A stretch of 64,000 bases of DNA, taken from an uncultured Candidatus Poseidoniales archaeon. Its GTDB lineage: Archaea > Thermoplasmatota > Poseidoniia > Poseidoniales > CAYMED01. The notes below the pieces were generated by a model. That model was not told where the DNA came from, ran no database searches, and saw nothing but the letters and a program-made list of their open reading frames with translations. Below are positions 8,592-49,845 of the stretch, piece after piece. The stretch covers positions 1-64,000 of the forward strand of contig CAYMED010000001.1 of the NCBI GenBank assembly GCA_964389655.1. Direction: 5' to 3'. The stretch's first letter is position 1. Each line of letters begins with the position of its first letter. Made by a program: the position numbers and the translations under genes.

Positions 8592-9248
8592 CTATGTTTG
8601 AGATTGCAATAACCGAAGGTCTGAAAGCACATCATTTGGGTCCCAATCTTGGCCTCTCCACAAAATTCTCATTCTTCTTTCTCCATCTACTATGAAGAGG
8701 GCTGGGTTGTGGGTGATAAGGGTAATATTAGATGAGTCATTATTTTTCTCATTATTACTGACAAAGCCACCATCTTCTTCTTCAAATGTGTATATCGCCC
8801 ATTTTGTCCATAGGTCCTGCAAATCGGAATAATTTCCGGTAAGATGTGGCCAATTATAATTCATTTTTTCAGTCCAATTTGATAAGTGACTTATCGTATC
8901 ATGCTCGGGGTCTACTGTAATTGATACAATCCCGATATTGTTTTGTTCATTCTGGCTAAGTGCATTATATATCAAGAACAAATTTGATTCAATGACCAAA
9001 CACTCACTTGGACATCTAGTATATGTAAATGCGAATGCCAAAACCTCCTCTTCAAATGAAGAAAGGCCAATTTCACTTCCATTTTGGTCAAAAAGAATAA
9101 AGTCAGGAGCATTTGAACCACTCAACTCAATCCCTCTATATTTTTTCAAACCATCACTATTTGAATGGGGTGTTGCCACACACCCTGCTGTAATATGCGC
9201 AACAAGAAGTAAAGCCATAACGGCCTTTTTTGATTTCAATTTCATCAC
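8592..9248 (-). CDS. SCO1/SenC family copper chaperone (lipoprotein)
   Basis: Lipobox-like ITAGC, YTRCPSEC (CxxxC), SITVDPEHDT and conserved His in ITHNP. Confidence 0.9.
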   Translation of the reverse strand: MMKLKSKKAVMALLLVAHITAGCVATPHSNSDGLKKYRGIELSGSNAPDFILFDQNGSEIGLSSFEEEVLAFAFTYTRCPSECLVIESNLFLIYNALSQNEQNNIGIVSITVDPEHDTISHLSNWTEKMNYNWPHLTGNYSDLQDLWTKWAIYTFEEEDGGFVSNNEKNNDSSNITLITHNPALFIVDGERRMRILWRGQDWDPNDVLSDLRLLQSQT

Positions 9249-12363: not shown

Positions 12364-13464
12364 ATGAGGCCAGATGCCATGATGGCGAAAGCCTTGGAAC
12401 TTGCTCTTCAGGGAAGAGGGAAGACCTCCCCTAACCCATTGGTAGGGTGTGTGCTTGTTCGGGATGGGGAAATTATTGCTGAAGGGTGGCATGACCATTT
12501 GGGTGGGTTACATGCCGAACAAGAAGCAATTGCAGCAGCTGAAAAAGCGGGGATTTCTACAAAGGGGGCCACAGCATACGTTACTCTTGAACCATGTAAC
12601 CATCACGGTAGAACGCCACCTTGTACAGAGTCATTGCTTTGGGCAGGTATTAAGCGCGTGATTATTTCTCAAAGAGATCCGAACCCCATGGTTTGTGGGG
12701 GTGGTTTAGAACGCCTTGTGGGAGAGGGTATTGAGGTGGTTGAGGGTGTAATGTCCAATTTATCAAGTCGGCTTATGCAGGGATTTTTGCATTGGTGCCG
12801 TCATCGTCGTCCACTAGTTACTGCAAAAATGGCAGTTGACTCACAAGGGAGCGTTGATGATTTGAATCAGGAATCATCGCGCTTTACCTCTCATCAGTCA
12901 CTAGAACTTTCTCACCAATTACGCGCCGTATCTGATTCCATTCTTGTTGGAATTGGCACAGTACTTCGTGATGATCCGATGTTGACAGTTCGACTATGTC
13001 CTAGAAACCGGCATACGCCCCCCTTGCGCGTAATCTTAGATCCTCATGGGAAGATGCTGATTAATTCTCGAGTGAATTCAATAGATGCTCCTACATTGCA
13101 ATTTGTTTCAGATTCTTCTGAACGTTTTGAGCATGTTGAATGCTCCGACCTTGGACCTTTGTTAGATGATGGTGGTCTTTGGAATCCTGAGGTGATTTGC
13201 AATGCGCTTGGCGACCGTGAAATACATGAATTGCTAATAGAAGGTGGCCCAAAGACGATACGTCATTTTCTAGATGCGGATTTTGTTGATCGTTTTATCC
13301 ATATAAAGTCTCCAGTGACTCATGTGGAACCCCTATTTGGATTTGATATTGATCGATATATCGACCGCTGGCCTCACCAGGAAACGAGACATATGGGTGG
13401 TGATGAGGTTTCATTTTTCTCACGGGAAGTATTACCGTGGAAAGAATGGCCACGGATTCAGTAA
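12364..13464 (+). CDS. ribD: Bifunctional riboflavin biosynthesis deaminase/reductase RibD
   Basis: TSPNPLVGCV, HAE, VTLEPCNHHGRTPPC, then reductase domain ILVGIGTVLRDDP.LTVR and LLIEGG. Confidence 0.93.
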   Translation: MRPDAMMAKALELALQGRGKTSPNPLVGCVLVRDGEIIAEGWHDHLGGLHAEQEAIAAAEKAGISTKGATAYVTLEPCNHHGRTPPCTESLLWAGIKRVIISQRDPNPMVCGGGLERLVGEGIEVVEGVMSNLSSRLMQGFLHWCRHRRPLVTAKMAVDSQGSVDDLNQESSRFTSHQSLELSHQLRAVSDSILVGIGTVLRDDPMLTVRLCPRNRHTPPLRVILDPHGKMLINSRVNSIDAPTLQFVSDSSERFEHVECSDLGPLLDDGGLWNPEVICNALGDREIHELLIEGGPKTIRHFLDADFVDRFIHIKSPVTHVEPLFGFDIDRYIDRWPHQETRHMGGDEVSFFSREVLPWKEWPRIQ

Positions 13465-13787
13465 CTCGATAATCGACACCATGCAGGCAAGTATTCAGGC
13501 GAATTTGGTGAGGTGAATGCTACCCCCAGAAGCATCACAATCACAAAGAATACGGGGAACAACGCGGTCCAAGTTAGGATTCTAGGGTCTCCTTTCAGGT
13601 GCATGAATAATCCTGCAATCCCAATTCCTTTGACTACGGCCACTCCAATGAGTACAACTGCGGTCAAAACAAGACTTAATTCAAGACCAACCGCGCCTAC
13701 TTCGATAACTGTTAAGAACATGAGCACAACAAAATTCCAAAAGTATGCATCATTCCAAAGGCTTCCAGATTCACCATGCTCTCCCAT
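13458..13787 (-). CDS. Cytochrome c oxidase subunit IV (CtaF/caa3-type family)
   Basis: Three TM helices, LTVIEV and VK...FMHLK motif. Last gene of the cox operon. Confidence 0.85.
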   Translation of the reverse strand: MGEHGESGSLWNDAYFWNFVVLMFLTVIEVGAVGLELSLVLTAVVLIGVAVVKGIGIAGLFMHLKGDPRILTWTALFPVFFVIVMLLGVAFTSPNSPEYLPAWCRLSSY

Positions 13788-13802: not shown

Positions 13803-14729
13803 CTAATAGAGATAGAAAGCAGGGAATACGACAACCCATGCTAGATCTACAAAGTGCCAGTACAGCGCGAAATACTCAATTCCTTGGGCATTAAGTTTGT
13901 CCCACCCTCCATTTGCAGACTTGATAATGAGGTACAGCAACCCGATCAAACCCGCAAATACATGTGCGCCATGAGTCCCAGTTGTTACGTAAAACGTGCT
14001 TGCAGACAACCTAAGGTCAACCCCACCTAATCCATCTACCCAGTGTCTTTCAGTCCCATGCCCACTACATATCGCTTCAGAGATCCCATGGCAGAAATGA
14101 TCATGGCCTTTCCAATTCGAACCATTTAGGCGATAGCCCTCGGCAAAAATCAGTGTATTCCATTCAATCATCTTGAGAATTAGGAACATTATTCCAAGTC
14201 CTAGTGTTATTGAGAGATACATTGTCGTCTTTCTCTGCTTACCAAGTTTGGCGGCATTTAGGGCCAGTACAAGTGTATATGATGAGATAATTAGTGCAAA
14301 TGTGTTGATGGCGCCAGGGGCAAGTGTTCCCCAATCAGCGGCAATAAAGTGTGATGCTGGGATCCAACAATAAGGCAAGTCAGCAGGCGTGCATTCGTAA
14401 ATACTGGGCATATTTGTCCTATATCGGATATATGTTGAGAATAGGGATGAGAATACCATCGTTTCAGACATCAGGAATATCCACATCCCAACTTTTCGGA
14501 TATCGATACCCCCGAAAGGTTGTCCGATTGATTTTGGTTCAAGTGTTCCATTCCAATCAATATCTTCACGCCACCAATTAATTAGTCCAGCAACAAAGAT
14601 GGTAACTCCTCCAACGATTAGGACAATATTCACGAGTGCAATCCCAAGCAGAAGGAATGGCAATCCCGCTGACATAATAATTGGGCTAGCACTCCCATGA
14701 TGGCCGTCATGGTCCCCATATTCGCTCAT
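13803..14729 (-). CDS. coxC: Cytochrome c oxidase subunit III
   Basis: GMWIFLMSE, INTFALIISS, FYVTTGTHGAHV and LYWHFVDLAW. Confidence 0.95.
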   Translation of the reverse strand: MSEYGDHDGHHGSASPIIMSAGLPFLLLGIALVNIVLIVGGVTIFVAGLINWWREDIDWNGTLEPKSIGQPFGGIDIRKVGMWIFLMSETMVFSSLFSTYIRYRTNMPSIYECTPADLPYCWIPASHFIAADWGTLAPGAINTFALIISSYTLVLALNAAKLGKQRKTTMYLSITLGLGIMFLILKMIEWNTLIFAEGYRLNGSNWKGHDHFCHGISEAICSGHGTERHWVDGLGGVDLRLSASTFYVTTGTHGAHVFAGLIGLLYLIIKSANGGWDKLNAQGIEYFALYWHFVDLAWVVVFPAFYLY

Positions 14730-17051
14730 TCAATCCATCTCCTCTTTACTGGGCATTTGTTCTTCTTGAAGCCCCCATAGTCGACTAATGAATCGTTGTG
14801 TCCTGCTTGGCTTTGAGATGTGGTTTGTAGGGGCGTTTTCTTGTCGTACGTCATCCCCAAATGATGGAGTGGGTGGGGGTGATGTTGTTGTCCATTCTAA
14901 TGACCATCCTCCCCATGGGTTGTTTCCTGCTAAAACACCTTTGCGTGTTGAGATAATAATGTTCACGAGAAGAATGATCATAGATATACCAAATATGAAT
15001 GACGAAACGGTAATTAGCATATTTGCACCACCATAACCGGTTGATTCAGCATATGAGTGGGTGCGTCGTAGCATCCCATCAAGGCCAAGTTGGTGCATTG
15101 GCCAAAATGCAATATTATAACTCGTAAATGCAATAATGAAATGGATGCGCCCCCATGTTTCGTTTAAACAACGTCCAGTTACTTTGGGGTACCAATAGTA
15201 TATTGCGGAAAGTATACCAAATACAGTGCCACCAATAAACACGTAATGGAAATGTGCGACGACAAAATAAGTTTCATGAAGGTGCAAATCGAGGGGTATT
15301 GAGGCAAAATACATCCCTGAAATACCTCCTATTGTGAAAGTGACTAAGAACCCTAATGCCCACAACATATGCGTGTGGAACATGATTGCGCCCCCATGTA
15401 GGGTTGCGAGCCAATTGAAGATCTTTACACCAGTTGGTACGGCAACTAACATTGTCAAGAGCATTGTAATGAATCTGAATTGTGGGTCGGTTCCAGCAGT
15501 TAGCATGTGGTGCCCCCAAACAACAAACCCTAGCACCCCAATTCCTGCCATTGCCCAAACCATGGATTTGTATCCAAATATTGAGCGGTGAGATCCAGTG
15601 GCTAATACTTCACTTATCACCCCGAACGCGGGAAGGATGACAACATACACTTCGGGGTGTCCAAAGTACCAAAAGAGGTGAGCCCACAATAATGGATCCC
15701 CGCCAGCGGCGATATCATAGAATGCAGTTCCAATTGTACGGTCTAAAAAGATAAACACAAGGCCGATGACAAAGGCCGGGAGCGAAATAAAAAGCATAAA
15801 CACAGATACAAGAATCGACCATGTGAATAATGGCATTTTCATCCAAGTTACTCCTGGTGCCCTCATAGTGAATATGGTGGCAATGAAATTCACTCCGGAG
15901 AGGGTTGATGATGCACCGAGCATCAATTGTCCAGCAACCCACATCGTGGTTCCGGGTGTGGTTGTGGTTGTTGAATAAGGTGCGTATCCCGTCCATCCAG
16001 TGTCTGCTGCTCCATTTGAGAACACCCCCCAAAATATCAAAATCGTTGATGCCGGCAAGAGCCAAAACGCGAATGCATTTAGGCGTGGGAATGCAAGATC
16101 TTTTGCCCCGATTTGTAGTGGGACGATGTAATTTGCGAGTGCACTAATCAGTGGCATTGCAGCAAGGAAAATCATTGTAGTTCCATGAAGGGTAAAAAAT
16201 TGGTTATACTGCTGTTGTGTGAGAAAGTCGCTTTCAGGCTGAGCGAGTTGGATCCTGAAAAGCAGGGCGAAAATTCCCCCCACTAGGAAAAACAAAAACC
16301 CGAACCAGAAATAGAGGGTCCCGACACCCTTGTGGTCTGTTGTTGTAAGCCAGCCTTTGAGCCACGGCCAAAACACTTCAAAACGAAATGCATCTGGTGA
16401 GGCGCGGTGGAATACATAGGCTAGCATTGCCACGCTGATAATAATTGCAAGCAGAGTCCCAGTGAGAATTACAGACAAGGCAGAAGCTGTTGGAGCACCG
16501 ATGTAATATGATGCAGTATTCCATTGATCACCTACTCCATTCATTCCATCTCCATCTACGGAATTGACAACAAGTTGGAATTCTATATCCTTCCCAGGGA
16601 TATCTGGCGCGGTCCATTCAATTGGCCAAGCGCGCTGATCATTTCCCTCTGCTGAATGTGTGAGTATATCTGATCCTGTGTATTTCTCACCACCTACGCC
16701 ACCTCCATTATAGGTTGCATTTTTCCCCGTAGAATTGTCGATAGGAGAAAGACTACCATCGGAAACAACCAAGACAAACCCGCCTTGATTAATCATGCTT
16801 GATCCAATAGATGGCCCACCACTGATTGAAATATTGAGTGAATAGGTTTCTCCAACATCATATGTCTCTGGGACTCCATCTAGGAGTGCAGAAACGCCTG
16901 AATTAGCAGTTCCTGAGTGGCAACTGCAACCAGCATTGGCAACATTTTGGTCCGCAATACCACTTGGGTATGCGGTAAAAACTGGACTCAATGCGAGAAG
17001 AAATGCGGTCCCAAGAAGCATTACGATTCTCGTTTGTCGCACTCTTATCAT
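14730..17051 (-). CDS. coxA: Heme-copper oxidase subunit I (type A1) with an extra N-terminal exported domain
   Basis: TTDHK, HGTTMIF, DLAFPRLN, FWYFGHPEVY, VWGHHM, PTGVKIF and HETYFVVAHFHYV. The ~228-aa N-terminal extension comprises a signal peptide, a soluble domain and a TM helix. Confidence 0.95.
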   Translation of the reverse strand: MIRVRQTRIVMLLGTAFLLALSPVFTAYPSGIADQNVANAGCSCHSGTANSGVSALLDGVPETYDVGETYSLNISISGGPSIGSSMINQGGFVLVVSDGSLSPIDNSTGKNATYNGGGVGGEKYTGSDILTHSAEGNDQRAWPIEWTAPDIPGKDIEFQLVVNSVDGDGMNGVGDQWNTASYYIGAPTASALSVILTGTLLAIIISVAMLAYVFHRASPDAFRFEVFWPWLKGWLTTTDHKGVGTLYFWFGFLFFLVGGIFALLFRIQLAQPESDFLTQQQYNQFFTLHGTTMIFLAAMPLISALANYIVPLQIGAKDLAFPRLNAFAFWLLPASTILIFWGVFSNGAADTGWTGYAPYSTTTTTPGTTMWVAGQLMLGASSTLSGVNFIATIFTMRAPGVTWMKMPLFTWSILVSVFMLFISLPAFVIGLVFIFLDRTIGTAFYDIAAGGDPLLWAHLFWYFGHPEVYVVILPAFGVISEVLATGSHRSIFGYKSMVWAMAGIGVLGFVVWGHHMLTAGTDPQFRFITMLLTMLVAVPTGVKIFNWLATLHGGAIMFHTHMLWALGFLVTFTIGGISGMYFASIPLDLHLHETYFVVAHFHYVFIGGTVFGILSAIYYWYPKVTGRCLNETWGRIHFIIAFTSYNIAFWPMHQLGLDGMLRRTHSYAESTGYGGANMLITVSSFIFGISMIILLVNIIISTRKGVLAGNNPWGGWSLEWTTTSPPPTPSFGDDVRQENAPTNHISKPSRTQRFISRLWGLQEEQMPSKEEMD

Positions 17052-17056
17052 CCCCT

Positions 17057-17818
17057 TCAGTTAAGCAAGCCAGAACATATCCCGGCATCATCATATCCAG
17101 TAATGACTACCGTTGCGAGCATATATGCGTGCATATCTCCACAATACTCTGCACATTTTACTCCAAGTGTGTAATTTCCATCTAAAAATGCATCCGATTG
17201 CGCATCAACTTGTTTTGGTGTTTTGGTTGTGAGGGTGATTCTCAATCCTGGCACTGCATCTTCCTTGATCCCTAACTCGACAATGAAGAATGCGTGTTGA
17301 ACATCATAGGAATATATGTGGAATTTGACAATCCGGTCACAAGGGATTGAAATTGAATTTGGCGTGTACCCCGCACGTACAAGGGCCATGTCTTCATCAG
17401 TGATCACCGGACTATTTTCTGTGAATAGGGTTTCCTCGCGGGCATTGAGGTACCATGCCCATTTTTCCCCAACTACAGTTACAGTAACAGGGGCACCCTC
17501 GGTAGCAGTTCTCTCTTCAAGATCTGCCTCAGTGGGCCATAAACGATCAAGGGGTCCGAGAGTGATTAGAGTGAGGTAGATTACTAGAATCAATGGGCCT
17601 AGGAACCAAGCAAATTCGAGTTTGGCGTTATCCCGTTCTTCGGGAAAGAAACCAGGGATAAATGGTGAATCTTTTTGGGGGTGGTGTCCAGACTTCGCAC
17701 GGTATCGTAGAATGAGGTATCCGAGTAAAACAAAAGTTAGAATTCCAACTAGGAATGCCCAAAAATTAAACACGTCCCAAAGCGCTGCAAATTCAGTATC
17801 AGAGCGGGGGGATGCCAT
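17057..17818 (-). CDS. coxB: Cytochrome c oxidase subunit II (CuA)
   Basis: Two TM helices, KWAW, DVQHAF and CAEYCGDMHAYM. GGAGGT SD upstream of ATG 17818. No C-terminal cytochrome c. Confidence 0.95.
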   Translation of the reverse strand: MASPRSDTEFAALWDVFNFWAFLVGILTFVLLGYLILRYRAKSGHHPQKDSPFIPGFFPEERDNAKLEFAWFLGPLILVIYLTLITLGPLDRLWPTEADLEERTATEGAPVTVTVVGEKWAWYLNAREETLFTENSPVITDEDMALVRAGYTPNSISIPCDRIVKFHIYSYDVQHAFFIVELGIKEDAVPGLRITLTTKTPKQVDAQSDAFLDGNYTLGVKCAEYCGDMHAYMLATVVITGYDDAGICSGLLN

Positions 17819-17882
17819 CCGATTTAACCTCCCGACCCTAGATGGATATGCCCCTTCTGCTGGAGGCCTCATGAACTGATTC

Positions 17883-46490: not shown

Positions 46491-47222
46491 TCAAGGGAGA
46501 TATAATCCCCCATTAACGTGCAGTACGGCTCCTGTCACATATGATGAGGCGGGGCTAGCGAGGAAAGTGATACATGAGGCGATTTCTTCAGGTTCAGCAA
46601 TTCTCCCCAAAGGGACCTCGGACTCTCTTTGAATGCGCTTTTCCTTTGAATCTCCTTTGAGTATTGCGGTATCTACAAAACCAGGGGCGACAATATTCAC
46701 GCGAATTCCTCGAGGGGCTAGGTCAAGTGCTAGCGACCTTGCCCAAGCATGTAACCCAGCTTTGCTGGCAGAATAATCTGCCCCATGTGCTGACCCCCGT
46801 ATGCCTAACTGGCTTCCAACCGCAACAATCCGTGCTCCTTCAATGATGTGGTTTCGAAGTTTCCACCACACAGCATGGGCCCCTTCTAAATTCACTCGGA
46901 TGGTATCGCGGAGAGTTATGGGGTCTAGCTCAGATGCAGCAACTCGTTCATAGATTCCATGATTTAATACCAGCACGTCGACTCCTTCGGCAGTCCATGG
47001 GTGGCGTACCATTAATTCGATTTCACTATAGTCGCTGCAGTCTACTTTGATCGCAACAGCATCTCCCCCCTCGTTTCGAATTTCCTCTACAGTTTTTTCT
47101 GCACTTCTTGCATTATTGTTGTAAGTCAACAGTACTCTGTATCCTGCACTTGCCAGTTTAAATGAAGTTGAAGCGCCAATGCCACGCCCGCCTCCTGTGA
47201 CGATGGCCAGTGCGCCCTCCAC
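46491..47222 (-). CDS. Short-chain dehydrogenase/reductase (FabG-like)
   Basis: TGGGRGIG, YSASK, VNIVAPGFVDT and VTGAVLHVNGG. Confidence 0.9.
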   Translation of the reverse strand: MEGALAIVTGGGRGIGASTSFKLASAGYRVLLTYNNNARSAEKTVEEIRNEGGDAVAIKVDCSDYSEIELMVRHPWTAEGVDVLVLNHGIYERVAASELDPITLRDTIRVNLEGAHAVWWKLRNHIIEGARIVAVGSQLGIRGSAHGADYSASKAGLHAWARSLALDLAPRGIRVNIVAPGFVDTAILKGDSKEKRIQRESEVPLGRIAEPEEIASCITFLASPASSYVTGAVLHVNGGLYLP

Positions 47223-47331
47223 AACTCCCTCTCCAATGCCTGCGGGGGGTGCTTACGGAAAAGAGAAACGTCTGTGTTCCAAGGGTGGTGCGCGGACACT
47301 TGATCAACGCACCGATTCTAGCCACCATCCA

Positions 47332-49845
47332 ATGGGCTTCATTGAAGGGCTCCCGGTCATTGCCGGCATTGCCGCCTTTGCTCTTGCAGCGAGAATTCCC
47401 TCTTTTACAAAAAAAGGGCGAGCAGGAACCGATATTGCATTGGTTTTTCTTACGGGATTTCTTCTTGCGCTCCCTCTCTTTATTTTGAGTATTGACCTTC
47501 TTTTTGGCACAGGAGCATTCCGATACTCACAGCAAGTGCTTGAATCGGGGCTTCCATGGAAATATCGAATCAGTGGCTTATGGTCTACCCGCGTTGGGCC
47601 CTTGGTTTTGTGGGCCACAATCATCGGGCTGTTAGGGTGTTGGCAAATTCATTCAAATGACTCCTCGCAGGGGATGGTTGCCATCCCGCTTTTACTTTTG
47701 TCGGGTGGGATGATGATCGTCGCCGCTAGATTTGAACCTCTCTCTCCCGCAATGGGAACTGCAGCCTATGGTTCGATGAACCCGCTTTTGCAAACCGACT
47801 TGATGGTAATACACCCTCCCCTGATCTTTGTTGGTTACAGTGTTGCTTTACTTCTTGCATCTAAAGCTCTCGTTTTAGATTGGTCGGATCCCCGCACATC
47901 AGATTCTCTTCGAAAGTCGGCGAATTTAACCTTAATCATCCTAACAATCGGTATTGGGCTTGGGGGATTATGGGCATTTATGGTCCTAGATTGGGGTGGA
48001 TATTGGGCTTGGGACCCGGTCGAAACAGGGTCTCTTCTCCCTTGGATTCTCGTTCTTCTTCTTCTTCACGTGCGTACTGTGCCGCAATTAAGTCAAAAAC
48101 CAGCACTCGAGGCTGCAATAGCGGGCTCGACTGGCTGTGCTGTCCTTCTTGCTGCGCTTGTAACTCGCGCGGGGGGCGTTTGGGCATCCGTTCACGCTTT
48201 TGTCGGGAATGGTCCACAGATGGCGAATTCAAATGGACTTACGCGCATCCTTCTAGCGGGGCAAGATCCAATTTCAGGATCCGAGATTGGGTTTGAAATT
48301 GGCATGCTTACAATTCTTGCCAATGGGATGGTATTGCGGGTAATTCACTGGCAGACTGGCAATAAAATGGGCTTAAACCGCCAAATGGAAGTTGCCGCAT
48401 TTTTCCTCGTTCTGCTAATAGCACCAATTGCATTTTCTAATAATCCATCGCAGTCATTGTTCTTCTTGATAGTGATATTGGCCCTCCCTTGGATAGCCTC
48501 AAAAGAGGCATTATCATGCTTATTTTGGCGTATTTACTCGAGAAAACATGTTTTAACTGGCTTTGCATTGGTCCTTTCCACCCTTTCATTTGGTGCATTC
48601 TTGAATATAGATGCGGGTGCGTGGGGCTTCGGAGTAGACCCATTAATTGGGCTTATATCTTGCAGCTTGCTGCTTTGGTGGGGATCCAATGAGGGAGTCC
48701 TACCTCATTTTGCCCCAACATTATCTCTCGTTTCAATCCATATTATCGCAGCATGGGCTGGTTTGGCGGGCTTAGGTGCGTCTTCAATAATTCTTGGGGG
48801 GGTTTTGTATCCTTGGTTAATGGGCCAGGAACTGAATGAACCCCCCCCTGTGAATCATACAGCTCCTATGGCGAGATTGTGGTTCTTGCTTGAGAAAACC
48901 TCGATCAAAGCCCCAATTTTTCTAGGATCATTATATTTCTTCATCACATTAATCTCCTTGTTTACATCAATGGATTCTCCGCGCTTTGACCTCCACGAAA
49001 CCCTAGGTGCTCCGATATTGTTCTTTATCTGCATATTCTTGTTTATCCGGTTTGGAGTTACGGGAACCGCCTCCAAAAAGAGAGGCATTTTCTCCATTTT
49101 CGGGGTGGTTTCAATTACCCTTGTTGGCCTCCTTTTCCTTTCATCTTCCCTCCCGGGCGATTCAGAAGACCTGTTAATTGGGCCCTTTATCCGGGGCCAC
49201 ATTGCTTGGCTAATTCTTCCGGCTTCCTTGTTTGTTCTTCCAACACTCATCGCACACCTTATTCGGACATCTCGCAATGAATATCATTTTGGCATAAGGT
49301 CTTTAATCCAAAAAATAGGGCCACACATTGCCCATTTTGGTATGGTGTTATTCATAATTGGGCACGTATTTTCCACAACACTTGTTGCTAGGGGCGCCCT
49401 CAACCATGTTGTTACTTTGACAAAAGATGTTCCGTTGGAGGTGGATGGGAGGTCATTGACATTCACTGGAATTGAAGTCATTCCAGATGAATCTCCTTCA
49501 TTTGACGAGAGATTTGACGTGGGTGAAGGGTATGTTGGCGTGATGGTCAAAGTCGATGGTGAGTCCGACTTGCTTCAGCCTGGTGTGATTAGATTTGACA
49601 GGCCAAATGGACTTATTTCAACTAGATCTGAAGTTGCTCGTTCATCCGATGTCATGGGCACCACAGTTGTTGTTCTAGATTCAGAACAAGCATCGGAATT
49701 GATGCGTTCATCGATGTTTGGGGAAGATGTAGAGAGGGTGAGGCTGACTGTTTATTCCCTCCCGTTCAATTGGATGATTTGGGGTGGGTGGCTCCTTTTG
49801 ATTGTAGGAATGGCTCCCAGATTACTTGGTGAGCCTCCTAAATGA
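47332..49845 (+). CDS. ccmF: Cytochrome c biogenesis heme lyase CcmF/NrfE-like
   Basis: MNPLLQ, IHPP, WWD domain WGGYWAWDPVETGSLLPW, LLH, SVHAF, AHFG, and C-terminal P...IW.G. Confidence 0.85.
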   Translation: MGFIEGLPVIAGIAAFALAARIPSFTKKGRAGTDIALVFLTGFLLALPLFILSIDLLFGTGAFRYSQQVLESGLPWKYRISGLWSTRVGPLVLWATIIGLLGCWQIHSNDSSQGMVAIPLLLLSGGMMIVAARFEPLSPAMGTAAYGSMNPLLQTDLMVIHPPLIFVGYSVALLLASKALVLDWSDPRTSDSLRKSANLTLIILTIGIGLGGLWAFMVLDWGGYWAWDPVETGSLLPWILVLLLLHVRTVPQLSQKPALEAAIAGSTGCAVLLAALVTRAGGVWASVHAFVGNGPQMANSNGLTRILLAGQDPISGSEIGFEIGMLTILANGMVLRVIHWQTGNKMGLNRQMEVAAFFLVLLIAPIAFSNNPSQSLFFLIVILALPWIASKEALSCLFWRIYSRKHVLTGFALVLSTLSFGAFLNIDAGAWGFGVDPLIGLISCSLLLWWGSNEGVLPHFAPTLSLVSIHIIAAWAGLAGLGASSIILGGVLYPWLMGQELNEPPPVNHTAPMARLWFLLEKTSIKAPIFLGSLYFFITLISLFTSMDSPRFDLHETLGAPILFFICIFLFIRFGVTGTASKKRGIFSIFGVVSITLVGLLFLSSSLPGDSEDLLIGPFIRGHIAWLILPASLFVLPTLIAHLIRTSRNEYHFGIRSLIQKIGPHIAHFGMVLFIIGHVFSTTLVARGALNHVVTLTKDVPLEVDGRSLTFTGIEVIPDESPSFDERFDVGEGYVGVMVKVDGESDLLQPGVIRFDRPNGLISTRSEVARSSDVMGTTVVVLDSEQASELMRSSMFGEDVERVRLTVYSLPFNWMIWGGWLLLIVGMAPRLLGEPPK

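What the first reader, a model, noticed from the sequence alone, without database searches (positions are those of the whole stretch)
16368..17051. Oxidase subunit I fused to an exported Reeler/choice-of-anchor-V-like domain with a CxCH motif
Seen: before the normal CoxI start (W..TTDHK, ~aa 234) lie a signal peptide, a ~160-aa soluble domain and an extra TM helix, all in one ORF. The domain contains GCSCH (16917-16928), PETYDVGETY, GGF, LTHS, W..EWTAP and VNSVDGDG..GD. CoxII has CuA but no fused cytochrome c. Established: subunit I normally lacks an exported N-terminal domain, caa3 oxidases carry cytochrome c on subunit II, and heme c attaches at CxxCH. Inference: this is a new oxidase architecture in which a beta-sandwich domain binds heme through a contracted CxCH (His132 as a possible second ligand), or binds another metal, and donates electrons to CuA.
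Basis: partly seen in the sequence, partly recalled or inferred. Interest (0 to 1): 0.8.

Follow-up and report, generated by a model that had tools for sequence, protein, structure and literature searches.

The report
Oxidase subunit I with built-in CxCH domain
In this Marine Group II archaeon, as in about 100 of 121 relatives searched, the core subunit of the oxygen-reducing respiratory enzyme carries an extra outward-facing domain shaped like cytochrome f; it probably holds a covalently bound haem on an unusual Cys-x-Cys-His site and feeds electrons into the enzyme, though haem binding is unproven.

Summary
One 773-aa ORF (14730-17051, minus strand) encodes a signal peptide, a ~160-aa exported domain, one extra TM helix and a complete CoxI.

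- **Identity of the domain.** It is a member of NCBIfam NF041895 (choice-of-anchor V, 89 bits against a cut-off of 42), a prokaryotic relative of the Reeler domain.
- **The fusion is real.** A junction-spanning open frame occurs in about 101 of 121 Poseidoniia genomes, in all 22 genera sampled.
- **The motif behaves like a haem c site.** Across the family it is C-Xn-CH. The CH is fixed and n is usually 1, but also 2, 4, 5, 7 or 8.
- **The maturation machine has no other conserved client.** The genome has a full archaeal Ccm system, and I found no canonical CxxCH cytochrome conserved in relatives.
- **Ccm always accompanies the domain.** Every domain-positive genome tested has Ccm components.
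- **A sister copy sits in complex III.** It heads the Rieske/split cytochrome b operon.

My best reading is a built-in cytochrome f-like haem c module for electron entry, with confidence about 0.55. Haem binding is not shown.

This scan reached similar readings before on at least 13 other genomes. I found no paper describing it; the nearest is a 2015 prediction of Reeler-fold CxxCH cytochromes in Ignicoccus.

The parts
16971..17051 (-). Signal peptide, residues 1-27, with predicted cleavage after Ala27.
   Evidence: Hydrophobic stretch at residues 7-28. Across the family, position 27 is A, S or G in 133 of 141 sequences, and position 25 is small (A, V, G, T or S) in 110 of 141. The start lies 5 nt after the coxII stop.
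16488..16970 (-). Exported choice-of-anchor V / Reeler-like beta-sandwich domain, residues 28-188.
16917..16928 (-). C42-S-C44-H45, the candidate contracted haem c attachment site with its proximal His.
   Evidence: C, C and H are each present in 161 of 162 representatives. The spacer is 1 residue in about 89%, and 2, 4, 5, 7 or 8 in the rest.
16656..16658 (-). His132, a candidate distal haem ligand.
   Evidence: His in 150 of 162 representatives, Gln in 6, Phe in 4. A conserved His111 of the Ignicoccus Reeler-fold proteins was proposed as distal ligand in PMC4429474; its equivalence to His132 is my assumption.
16401..16484 (-). Extra transmembrane helix TM0, residues 190-217. It returns the chain to the cytoplasmic side.
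   Evidence: Hydropathy peak at 186-218, followed by a basic stretch (H, R, R, K). It corresponds to the C-terminal anchor of free family members.
16353..16400 (-). Cytoplasmic linker, residues 218-233.
   Evidence: Lies between TM0 and the start of the TIGR02891 match at residue 234.
14730..16352 (-). Haem-copper oxidase subunit I core, residues 234-773 plus the stop codon.
   Evidence: PF00115 at 484.6 bits. TIGR02891 at 659 bits against a cut-off of 670.75.
17057..17872 (-). CoxII with a CuA site and no fused cytochrome c.
   Evidence: PF00116 and TIGR02866 match. The CuA motif is visible, and there is no CxxCH.
13803..14729 (-). CoxIII.
   Evidence: PF00510 at E 4e-16.
13458..13787 (-). 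Prokaryotic CoxIV.
   Evidence: PF03626 at E 2e-13.
47179..49845 (+). CcmF haem lyase, the likely maturation enzyme for the CxCH site, about 30 kb away in the same window.
   Evidence: PF01578 at E 3e-24. WWD motif WGGYWAWD.

Best explanation
The N-terminal 230 residues of this CoxI form a built-in electron-entry module.

**Steps shown or directly supported by sequence**
- The protein is exported by a signal peptide that looks cleavable.
- A Reeler-like beta-sandwich of the choice-of-anchor V family sits on the outer face of the membrane.
- One extra TM helix tethers it. That helix restores the normal N-in topology of CoxI.

**Inferred: the cofactor**
- The archaeal Ccm system (CcmABC, a CxxxY-type CcmE, CcmF) attaches one haem c to Cys42 and Cys44, with His45 as proximal ligand.
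- The distal ligand is His132 or, as in cytochrome f, the new N-terminal amino group.

**Inferred: the function**
- The haem takes electrons from a paralogous module that heads the Rieske/split cytochrome b operon, either through the single halocyanin-like copper protein or directly.
- It passes them to CuA of CoxII.
- It would thus play the part that the fused cytochrome c domain plays in caa3 oxidases, but on subunit I and with a cytochrome f-like fold.
For: **1. Architecture.** The segments and family match are shown. The fusion is conserved: a junction-spanning frame occurs in about 101 of 121 class genomes, in all 22 genera. It also occurs in another class of the phylum (G156, two operons).

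**2. The motif behaves like a haem c site.** CH is fixed in 161 of 162 representatives. The first Cys lies at a variable distance:
- n=1 in about 89%;
- n=2 in 4 (CTPCH, CIQCH, CMPCH, CGGCH);
- n=4 in 8, n=5 in 1, n=7 in 1, n=8 in 2;
- one member has A-x-CH.

**3. There is a precedent.** A contracted CKCH site binds haem in a Kuenenia tetrahaem protein (Ferousi 2019, as cited in PMC7096707).

**4. The maturation machine is present without another conserved client.**
- CcmF, CcmC and CcmE are present.
- CcmE ends CPSKY, and CcmF and CcmC have WWD motifs.
- Only 10 ORFs have CxxCH, and none is a credible conserved cytochrome: Fe-S and cytoplasmic proteins, an amidohydrolase, a Planctomycete-type contaminant contig, and a segment not found in 20 relatives.
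- No PF00034 match exceeds the cut-off.

**5. Co-occurrence with Ccm.**
- All 121 class genomes have the domain, and 56 of 61 have CcmE.
- Outside the class, all 22 domain-positive genomes have CcmE or CcmF/C.
- Among oxidase-bearing genomes, 13 of 13 domain-positive ones have Ccm components, against 5 of 16 domain-negative ones with CcmE.
- 0 of 5 domain-negative controls have PF01578.

**7. Respiratory context.**
- A paralogue heads the operon V-protein / small membrane protein / Rieske / cyt b / cyt b C-terminus fused to Fe-S and CCG domains. This holds here and in 3 other genomes.
- A free copy follows an unfused coxI in MGIII genomes.
- A copy lies next to a halocyanin and about 15 kb from ccmC and ccmF in G133.

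**8. Published parallel.** Reeler-fold CxxCH proteins of Ignicoccus were predicted to be monohaem cytochromes c (PMC4429474).
Against: - No experiment shows haem on any member of this family.
- From memory only, unverified here: the E. coli Ccm system was reported not to mature an engineered CxCH site.
- The structural Z (about 9.7) is only modestly above the background typical for beta-sandwiches (notes). There is no sequence-level link to cytochrome f.
- The eukaryotic Reeler relatives lack the motif and are not haem proteins.
- Two free family members examined (P0115, P0018) sit among unannotated genes, not respiratory ones.
- Co-occurrence with Ccm among related genomes is not independent evidence.
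- His132 is Gln or Phe in 10 of 162 representatives.
Confidence: 0.55

Rival explanations
1. Copper-handling domain. Cys42, Cys44 and His45 bind Cu(I), and the tethered beta-sandwich acts as a chaperone for the CuB or CuA site, like Cox11 with its CFCF motif on a membrane-anchored Ig-like domain. Alternatively it acts as a small copper redox centre.
For: - A CxC motif plus His sits on a membrane-tethered beta-sandwich fused or adjacent to CoxI.
- The genome has four Sco1 homologues, but no Cox11 or PCuAC was found. A CuB chaperone is therefore unaccounted for.
Against: - The same domain heads the Rieske/cyt b operon, which has no copper site to load.
- The Cys-Cys spacing varies from 1 to 8 residues while CH stays fixed, and one member has a single Cys. 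That is typical of haem c sites and odd for a Cys2His metal site.
- The domain always travels with Ccm.
- The fold aligns to cytochrome f from its residue 1.
- Neither Cox11 nor PCuAC appears among the listed structural matches.
Confidence: 0.12
2. Non-redox accessory domain. It is a Reeler-type surface module with a CxC disulfide that serves assembly, supercomplex docking, S-layer or cell-surface contact, or ligand binding, and carries no cofactor.
For: - Eukaryotic Reeler domains are cofactor-free binding modules (3COO, 2ZOT).
- Many family members are large surface proteins with PKD or Ig domains, or sit in non-respiratory neighbourhoods.
- NCBIfam treats it as a surface-anchored domain of unknown function.
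Against: - A disulfide needs both Cys, yet one member has only the CH Cys.
- A near-invariant His directly after the second Cys and a second conserved His have no role in this reading.
- It does not explain the linkage to Ccm, Rieske/cyt b, cox and halocyanin genes.
- It leaves the conserved Ccm system of the whole class without a substrate.
Confidence: 0.13
3. The domain does carry haem c but is not the electron entry to CuA. It might instead act as a peroxidase or NO/O2-scavenging guard, a redox sensor, or an exit point for extracellular electron transfer.
For: - The family also occurs on long surface proteins and in operons with small membrane partners that look like outward electron-transfer branches (locus C3:15320-19408).
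- His132 is replaced by Gln or Phe in some members, which could give a reactive five-coordinate haem.
Against: - In the CoxI-fused and Rieske-linked copies His132 is kept.
- The fusion partner and the c1/f-like operon position argue for in-chain electron transfer.
- CoxII has no other fused donor, and the genome has only one small copper protein.
Confidence: 0.1

Closest known systems
NCBIfam NF041895, choice-of-anchor V domain (with NF041894, the MXAN_6652 family)
   Same: It is a direct family member: 89 bits against a cut-off of 42, covering profile positions 2-148 of 150. It shares the signal peptide, the domain and a C-terminal anchor.
   Different: The family is catalogued without a function. 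Here the usual C-terminal anchor helix has become the link to CoxI.
Cytochrome f (PetA) of cytochrome b6f complexes (e.g. 2JXM chain B, 1CFM, 1CTM, 1VF5 chain C)
   Same: - Both are exported beta-sandwiches with the haem motif 14-20 residues after the mature N-terminus and a C-terminal TM anchor.
- The paralogue is encoded with a Rieske protein and a split cytochrome b.
- A plastocyanin-like copper protein is the likely partner.
   Different: - There is no detectable sequence similarity.
- There is no small domain; the aligned range skips it.
- The motif is CxCH instead of CxxCH.
- A conserved His132 may replace the N-terminal amine as ligand.
- Here the module is fused to an oxidase.
Cytochrome c domain of caa3-type oxidases (Thermus, Bacillus, Rhodothermus)
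   Same: An electron-carrier domain is covalently built into a haem-copper oxidase on the outer face, next to CuA.
   Different: In caa3 it is a class I alpha-helical cytochrome c with CxxCH, fused to the C-terminus of subunit II. Here it is a beta-sandwich with CxCH at the N-terminus of subunit I plus an extra TM helix. CoxII here has no CxxCH.
Predicted Reeler-fold monohaem cytochromes c of Ignicoccus hospitalis (Igni_0579/0759 and Igni_1052, 'cluster 38'; Kletzin et al. 2015, PMC4429474)
   Same: They are small exported archaeal proteins modelled on the F-spondin Reeler domain. The haem motif lies near the N-terminus, a conserved later His is the candidate distal ligand, and some have a C-terminal TM helix.
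   Different: They have canonical CxxCH, are free-standing, and have no known link to oxidase or Rieske/cyt b genes. They too are unproven experimentally.
Contracted CKCH haem site of the Kuenenia stuttgartiensis tetrahaem cytochrome (Ferousi et al. 2019, J Biol Chem 294:16953)
   Same: It shows that a C-x-C-H site can carry covalently bound, functional haem c (cited in PMC7096707).
   Different: It is one site within a helical multihaem bacterial protein of unrelated fold and context. The original paper was not available to read.
Reeler domain (Pfam PF02014; F-spondin 3COO, 2ZOT, 2ZOU)
   Different: The animal domains start after the CxCH segment and lack the His132 equivalent (alignment). 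They bind heparin, not a cofactor.

Membership tests
NCBIfam NF041895 choice-of-anchor V domain | HMM score above the curated cut-off of 42 bits over most of the 150-position profile. | tested here: met
   89.0 bits, E 3e-25, profile positions 2-148. The whole-genome search gives 89.6 bits.
Pfam PF02014 Reeler | Match to the Reeler HMM. | tested here: inconclusive
   [not shown]
Haem-copper oxidase subunit I (A-type CoxI/CtaD) | Full-length match to PF00115 and TIGR02891. | tested here: met
   PF00115 scores 484.6 bits over profile positions 2-436 of 436. TIGR02891 scores 659.1 bits, just under its equivalog cut-off of 670.75.
c-type cytochrome | C-Xn-C-H attachment motif with an invariant CH. 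| tested here: met
   CSCH is at residues 42-45. Across the family CH is present in 161 of 162, with n = 1, 2, 4, 5, 7 or 8. n=1 has one published functional precedent.
c-type cytochrome | Export to the outer (P) side of the membrane. | tested here: met
   There is an N-terminal hydrophobic signal with small residues at -1 and -3. The topology is consistent with one extra TM helix before the N-in start of CoxI. This is a prediction only.
c-type cytochrome | A haem c maturation system in the same genome. | tested here: met
   CcmF, CcmC and CcmE (CxxxY type) are found, plus a CcmA-like ATPase gene next to ccmC that I inferred from its sequence only. Every domain-positive genome tested has Ccm components.
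c-type cytochrome | Covalently bound haem. | not testable with these tools
   This needs haem staining, pyridine haemochrome or mass spectrometry.
Cytochrome f (PetA) | Large-domain beta-sandwich fold with the N-terminal haem-binding segment. | tested here: inconclusive
   [not shown]
Cytochrome f (PetA) | Sequence membership (Pfam apocytochrome f families). | tested here: inconclusive
   No apocytochrome f family appears among the 25 listed of 82 families hit at E<=10 by the 141 members. No cytochrome f chain appears in the sequence or profile searches of the PDB.
Cytochrome f (PetA) | Small domain inserted in the large domain; canonical CxxCH; N-terminal alpha-amino ligand. | tested here: not met
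   The domain has about 160 residues against about 250 for cytochrome f, and the aligned range skips the small domain. The motif is CxCH. The ligand cannot be tested.
caa3-type oxidase | Class I cytochrome c domain fused to the C-terminus of subunit II. | tested here: not met
   CoxII is 271 aa with PF00116 only and no CxxCH.
Cox11/CtaG copper chaperone | Match to PF04442 with the CFCF motif. | tested here: not met
   PF04442 finds nothing in the genome at E<=0.01. The domain gives no Pfam hit at E<=1.

The most novel reading that the evidence does not exclude
The choice-of-anchor V / Reeler-like CxnCH proteins are true homologues of cytochrome f and form a large, overlooked class of beta-sandwich c-type cytochromes. 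In Marine Group II and III archaea they would replace both cytochrome c1 (as the first gene of the Rieske/split cyt b operon) and cytochrome c (as a domain fused to CoxI). A halocyanin would sit between them, making an archaeal counterpart of the b6f - cytochrome f - plastocyanin relay. That would give cytochrome f, so far an orphan fold, an evolutionary source. It would also show that CxxCH-based screens miss the main cytochromes of one of the most abundant archaeal groups in the surface ocean.
Probability: 0.25. Interest if true: 0.9.

Novelty: new variant of a known kind. Interest (0 to 1): 0.74.

Why it matters
Marine Group II archaea are among the most abundant heterotrophs of the surface ocean, yet none is in pure culture and their respiratory chain is known only from gene lists.

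Those lists show an oxidase, a Rieske/cytochrome b complex and a haem c maturation system. They show no cytochrome c or c1, so the chain has a gap and the maturation system has no client.

If this domain is a haem c module, it closes both gaps. It would add a third way of building an electron carrier into a haem-copper oxidase: on subunit I, with a beta-sandwich fold. It would extend the rare contracted CxCH site from one bacterial protein to a large family, since CxCH is the commonest form among the 162 cluster representatives inspected. It would also give cytochrome f structural relatives outside photosynthesis.

In practice, CxxCH pattern searches under-count cytochromes in archaeal genomes. 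Kletzin et al. 2015 already suspected this for haloarchaea.

Tried and rejected
- **Complex prediction.** Complex prediction of the domain (residues 28-190) against the CoxII soluble domain (105-271) returned 'no answer', score 0.00. This is no evidence either way. The tool was unreachable six times before that.
- **Read and RNA support.** Conservation of the junction in about 100 genomes makes an assembly artefact very unlikely anyway.
- **Single-sequence fold.** The AF2 model without an alignment was poor (pLDDT 54) and was not used.
- **Related loci.** The search for related loci with family alignments failed for lack of a conserved 7-10 column stretch. The family's range outside Thermoplasmatota was therefore not mapped.
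- **PDB sequence searches.** The single-sequence search gave nothing. The profile search gave only a weak spondin match.
- **Neighbourhoods.** Those of two free members (P0115 with CIQCH, P0018 with PGF-CTERM) held no annotated respiratory genes.
- **Tree.** A tree of 24 domain copies resolved a Rieske-linked clade and two fused clades but not their order. Whether the fusion arose once remains open.
- **Rieske cluster.** The CxCH box of Rieske proteins needs a second CxHxGC box and four Cys. This domain has only two Cys, so that reading was rejected.
- **Other Ccm clients.** The CxxCH proteins on contig C61 and in the 1923-aa surface protein were rejected. The first is a Planctomycete-type contaminant. 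The second has no match in 20 relatives.
- **Model geometry.** Model coordinates are not exposed, so the geometry of Cys42, Cys44, His45, His132 and the N-terminus could not be measured.
- **Original CKCH paper.** The Ferousi 2019 paper was not available to read.
Full report
**1. What is in the sequence**

The minus strand carries a tight oxidase operon:
- coxII, 17057-17872;
- coxI, 14730-17051, starting 5 nt after the coxII stop;
- coxIII, 13803-14729;
- coxIV, 13458-13787.

Pfam confirms all four. CoxI is 773 aa. The Pfam COX1 model covers residues 243-686, and TIGR02891 covers 234-732. Residues 1-233 are therefore extra.

Hydropathy gives a first hydrophobic stretch at 7-28 and a second at 186-218. 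The usual CoxI helices follow. The second helix is followed by basic residues.

The normal CoxI N-terminus is cytoplasmic. One added helix is exactly what is needed to place residues 28-188 outside the cell.

**2. What the extra domain is**

Residues 18-181 match NCBIfam NF041895 (choice-of-anchor V) at E 3e-25, 89 bits against a cut-off of 42. Pfam gives nothing for this protein. However, 46 of 141 family members hit the Reeler model PF02014, best E 3e-7. A family profile also finds the F-spondin Reeler domain in the PDB at E 0.036. The domain is therefore a prokaryotic Reeler relative.

A full scan of 1.84 billion cluster representatives found 573 relatives at E<=0.001. Most are proteins of 200-230 aa with a signal peptide, the domain and a C-terminal anchor (a TM helix or a PGF-CTERM-like tail). 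Some are long surface proteins, and some are CoxI fusions.

**3. The fusion is genuine and old**

- Fused CoxI proteins form several clusters at 30-43% identity in the domain. One cluster has 831 members, and identical sequences are seen on more than 100 contigs from independent sources.
- A query spanning the junction (residues 120-330) matches one uninterrupted frame of about 750-800 aa in about 101 of 121 genomes of the class, in all 22 genera sampled.
- Another class of the phylum (G156) has two fused operons.
- Four MGIII genomes have a second operon, coxIII-coxII-coxI(~505 aa)-free domain protein(~205 aa). The domain there is a separate gene downstream of coxI.

Fused and adjacent forms of the same pair indicate a functional link.

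**4. The motif behaves like a haem c site**

In 162 aligned representatives, Gly41, Cys42, Cys44 and His45 are each present in 161. The spacer between the two Cys varies:

| Spacer length | Representatives |
|---|---|
| 1 residue | about 89% |
| 2 residues (canonical CxxCH) | 4 |
| 4 residues | 8 |
| 5 residues | 1 |
| 7 residues | 1 |
| 8 residues | 2 |
| first Cys absent (A-x-CH) | 1 |

An invariant CH with a movable or dispensable first Cys is the pattern of haem c attachment sites (CX2-4CH, CX15CH, and the single-Cys sites of euglenozoa; established knowledge). It is not expected for a disulfide or a Cys2His metal site.

A contracted CKCH site has been shown to carry haem in a Kuenenia tetrahaem protein (Ferousi et al. 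2019, as described in PMC7096707).

His132 is conserved in 150 of 162 representatives.

The predicted signal cleavage site is also fixed relative to the fold. Position 27 is A, S or G in 133 of 141 sequences, and Gly31 is present in 137 of 141. The mature N-terminus therefore always lies 11-14 residues before the motif.

**5. A maturation system without another client**

The genome (2.1 Mb, 93% complete) encodes CcmF in this window, plus CcmC and CcmE. CcmE ends with the archaeal CxxxY motif, and CcmF and CcmC carry WWD motifs.

A six-frame census found 10 ORFs with CxxCH. They are:
- Fe-S or cytoplasmic proteins;
- an amidohydrolase;
- a Planctomycete-type protein on a 2-kb contaminant contig;
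- two giant surface proteins. In the one examined, the motif-bearing segment has no match in 20 relatives, including one of the same genus. The other (C3:77590-82413) was not followed up.

No class I cytochrome c exceeds the Pfam cut-off. By contrast, seven ORFs have CxCH: five choice-of-anchor V proteins, the Rieske protein and one unrelated ORF.

**6. Co-occurrence with Ccm**

- All 121 class genomes have the domain, and 56 of 61 have CcmE. Three of those lacking a CcmE hit were tested and have CcmF/C.
- In the rest of the phylum, 22 of about 118 genomes have the domain. Fifteen of those have CcmE, and the other seven have CcmF/C-type genes.
- Five domain-negative controls from five families have none.
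- Aerobic respiration alone does not explain this. Among genomes with CoxI, 13 of 13 domain-positive ones have Ccm components, against 5 of 16 domain-negative ones with CcmE.

Related genomes are not independent, so this is a test that could have refuted the idea and did not. It is not proof.

**7. Fold**

With a 141-sequence alignment, AlphaFold2 gives a confident model (pLDDT 88.5). It is a beta-sandwich preceded by a short helix that ends at the motif.

- Foldseek ranks the F-spondin Reeler domain first and lists cytochrome f.
- Other sandwich hits begin at about residue 47-54. Only cytochrome f and the Reeler domain reach the N-terminal segment that bears the motif.

**8. Respiratory context of the paralogues**

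The genome has five copies of the domain. One (C9:7441-8325) heads an operon with this gene order:
1. domain protein;
2. small membrane protein;
3. Rieske protein;
4. cytochrome b;
5. a 1334-aa protein that appears to begin with the C-terminal part of cytochrome b (inferred from its sequence) and carries 4Fe-4S and CCG domains.

This is the position of cytochrome c1 or f. The order is the same in three other Poseidoniales genomes. In G133 a copy abuts a halocyanin-like gene and lies about 15 kb from ccmC and ccmF.

This genome has a single halocyanin-like lipoprotein. In haloarchaea, a halocyanin accompanies the split-cytochrome-b Rieske cluster (PMC3509893).

**9. Mechanism proposed**

Shown:
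- the exported domain, the tether and the intact oxidase;
- family membership;
- conservation of the motif;
- presence of Ccm;
- the gene contexts.

Inferred:
- Ccm attaches haem to Cys42 and Cys44, with His45 as ligand.
- The sixth ligand is His132 or the N-terminal amine.
- Electrons run from quinol to Rieske/cyt b, then to the paralogous module, then (possibly via halocyanin) to the CoxI module, then to CuA, haem a and haem a3/CuB.

**10. Rivals**

- **Copper chaperone or copper centre.** Cox11 and PCuAC were not found, while Sco1 is present four times. This reading fails to explain the Rieske-linked paralogue, the variable spacing and the Ccm linkage.
- **Cofactor-free surface module.** This leaves the invariant His residues, and a Ccm system conserved across the class, without a role.
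- **Haem domain with another task.** This cannot be excluded.

**11. Comparison with what is known**

The protein is a member of NF041895 and a CoxI. It works like the cytochrome c domain of caa3 oxidases, but it differs in subunit, fold and motif. It looks like cytochrome f but fails its sequence and small-domain criteria.

The nearest published idea is the prediction of Reeler-fold CxxCH monohaem cytochromes in Ignicoccus. The same paper remarks that some archaeal cytochromes may use non-standard motifs (PMC4429474).

Full-text searches found no paper linking Reeler or choice-of-anchor V domains to archaeal oxidases or haem.

Earlier agents of this scan reached similar readings on at least 13 other genomes. 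I obtained the Rieske-operon, Ccm and cytochrome f results before reading those notes. The Ignicoccus paper came to me from them.

**12. Verdict**

Haem binding is unproven.

I rate the finding a new variant of a known kind: an oxidase with a built-in electron carrier. Interest is high because of the abundance of the organisms, the unusual motif and the possible tie to cytochrome f.

Noticed in passing
G000 contig C9:7441-14879 (locus L009:1441-8876): A complex III-like operon: choice-of-anchor V protein (294 aa, CSCH), a 151-aa membrane protein (weak DUF7318 match), a Rieske protein (twin-arginine signal, CICH box), cytochrome b (288 aa), then a 1334-aa protein. That last protein appears to begin with the C-terminal part of cytochrome b (inferred from its sequence) and ends in 4Fe-4S and CCG (HdrD/GlpC-like) domains. 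A ferredoxin follows. A Q-cycle subunit fused to a heterodisulfide-reductase-like module is unusual.
   Followed up: partly
window 47179-49845 (+): An 888-aa CcmF with an intact WWD motif (WGGYWAWD) stands alone. ccmC, with a CcmA-like ATPase gene beside it (inferred from sequence only), lies at C1:146293-148408. ccmE (CxxxY type) lies on contig C7. The Ccm genes are scattered rather than in one operon.
   Followed up: partly
window 8712-9107 (-): A Sco1/SenC homologue (PF02630, E 2e-20) lies about 4.4 kb beyond coxIV. It is one of four in the genome. No Cox11 or PCuAC was found.
   Followed up: no
G000 contig C4:47265-48991 (locus L012): A free 207-aa choice-of-anchor V protein (CMCH) lies directly upstream of a 364-aa exported protein with weak similarity to PQQ-dependent glucose/sorbosone dehydrogenases. 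Such enzymes often use a cytochrome partner.
   Followed up: no
G000 contig C3:15320-19408 (locus L011): An 854-aa surface protein begins with a choice-of-anchor V domain (CTCH). It is followed by a 229-aa protein and a 192-aa membrane protein. This may be an outward electron-transfer branch, as earlier notes of this scan suggest for other genomes.
   Followed up: no
G000 contig C7:39645-41931 (locus L010): A divergent 332-aa copy (CTCH; long branch in the tree) lies between the pntAB-like transhydrogenase genes (assigned from sequence only, no family scan) and a 449-aa membrane protein with a weak TatC-like match.
   Followed up: no
G000 contig C61 (locus L016:1-1110): This 2-kb contig encodes a PSCyt1/PSCyt2 (Planctomycete cytochrome c / DUF1549) protein. 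It is almost certainly bacterial contamination of the bin (5.7% estimated contamination).
   Followed up: yes
G001:C44:70001-86000 (locus L022:7652-11239): MGIII genomes carry a second oxidase operon, coxIII-coxII-coxI(503 aa)-free domain protein (204 aa, CICH), beside the fused one. A 558-aa halocyanin-like protein lies about 2 kb from the fused operon (L021:10692-12368).
   Followed up: partly
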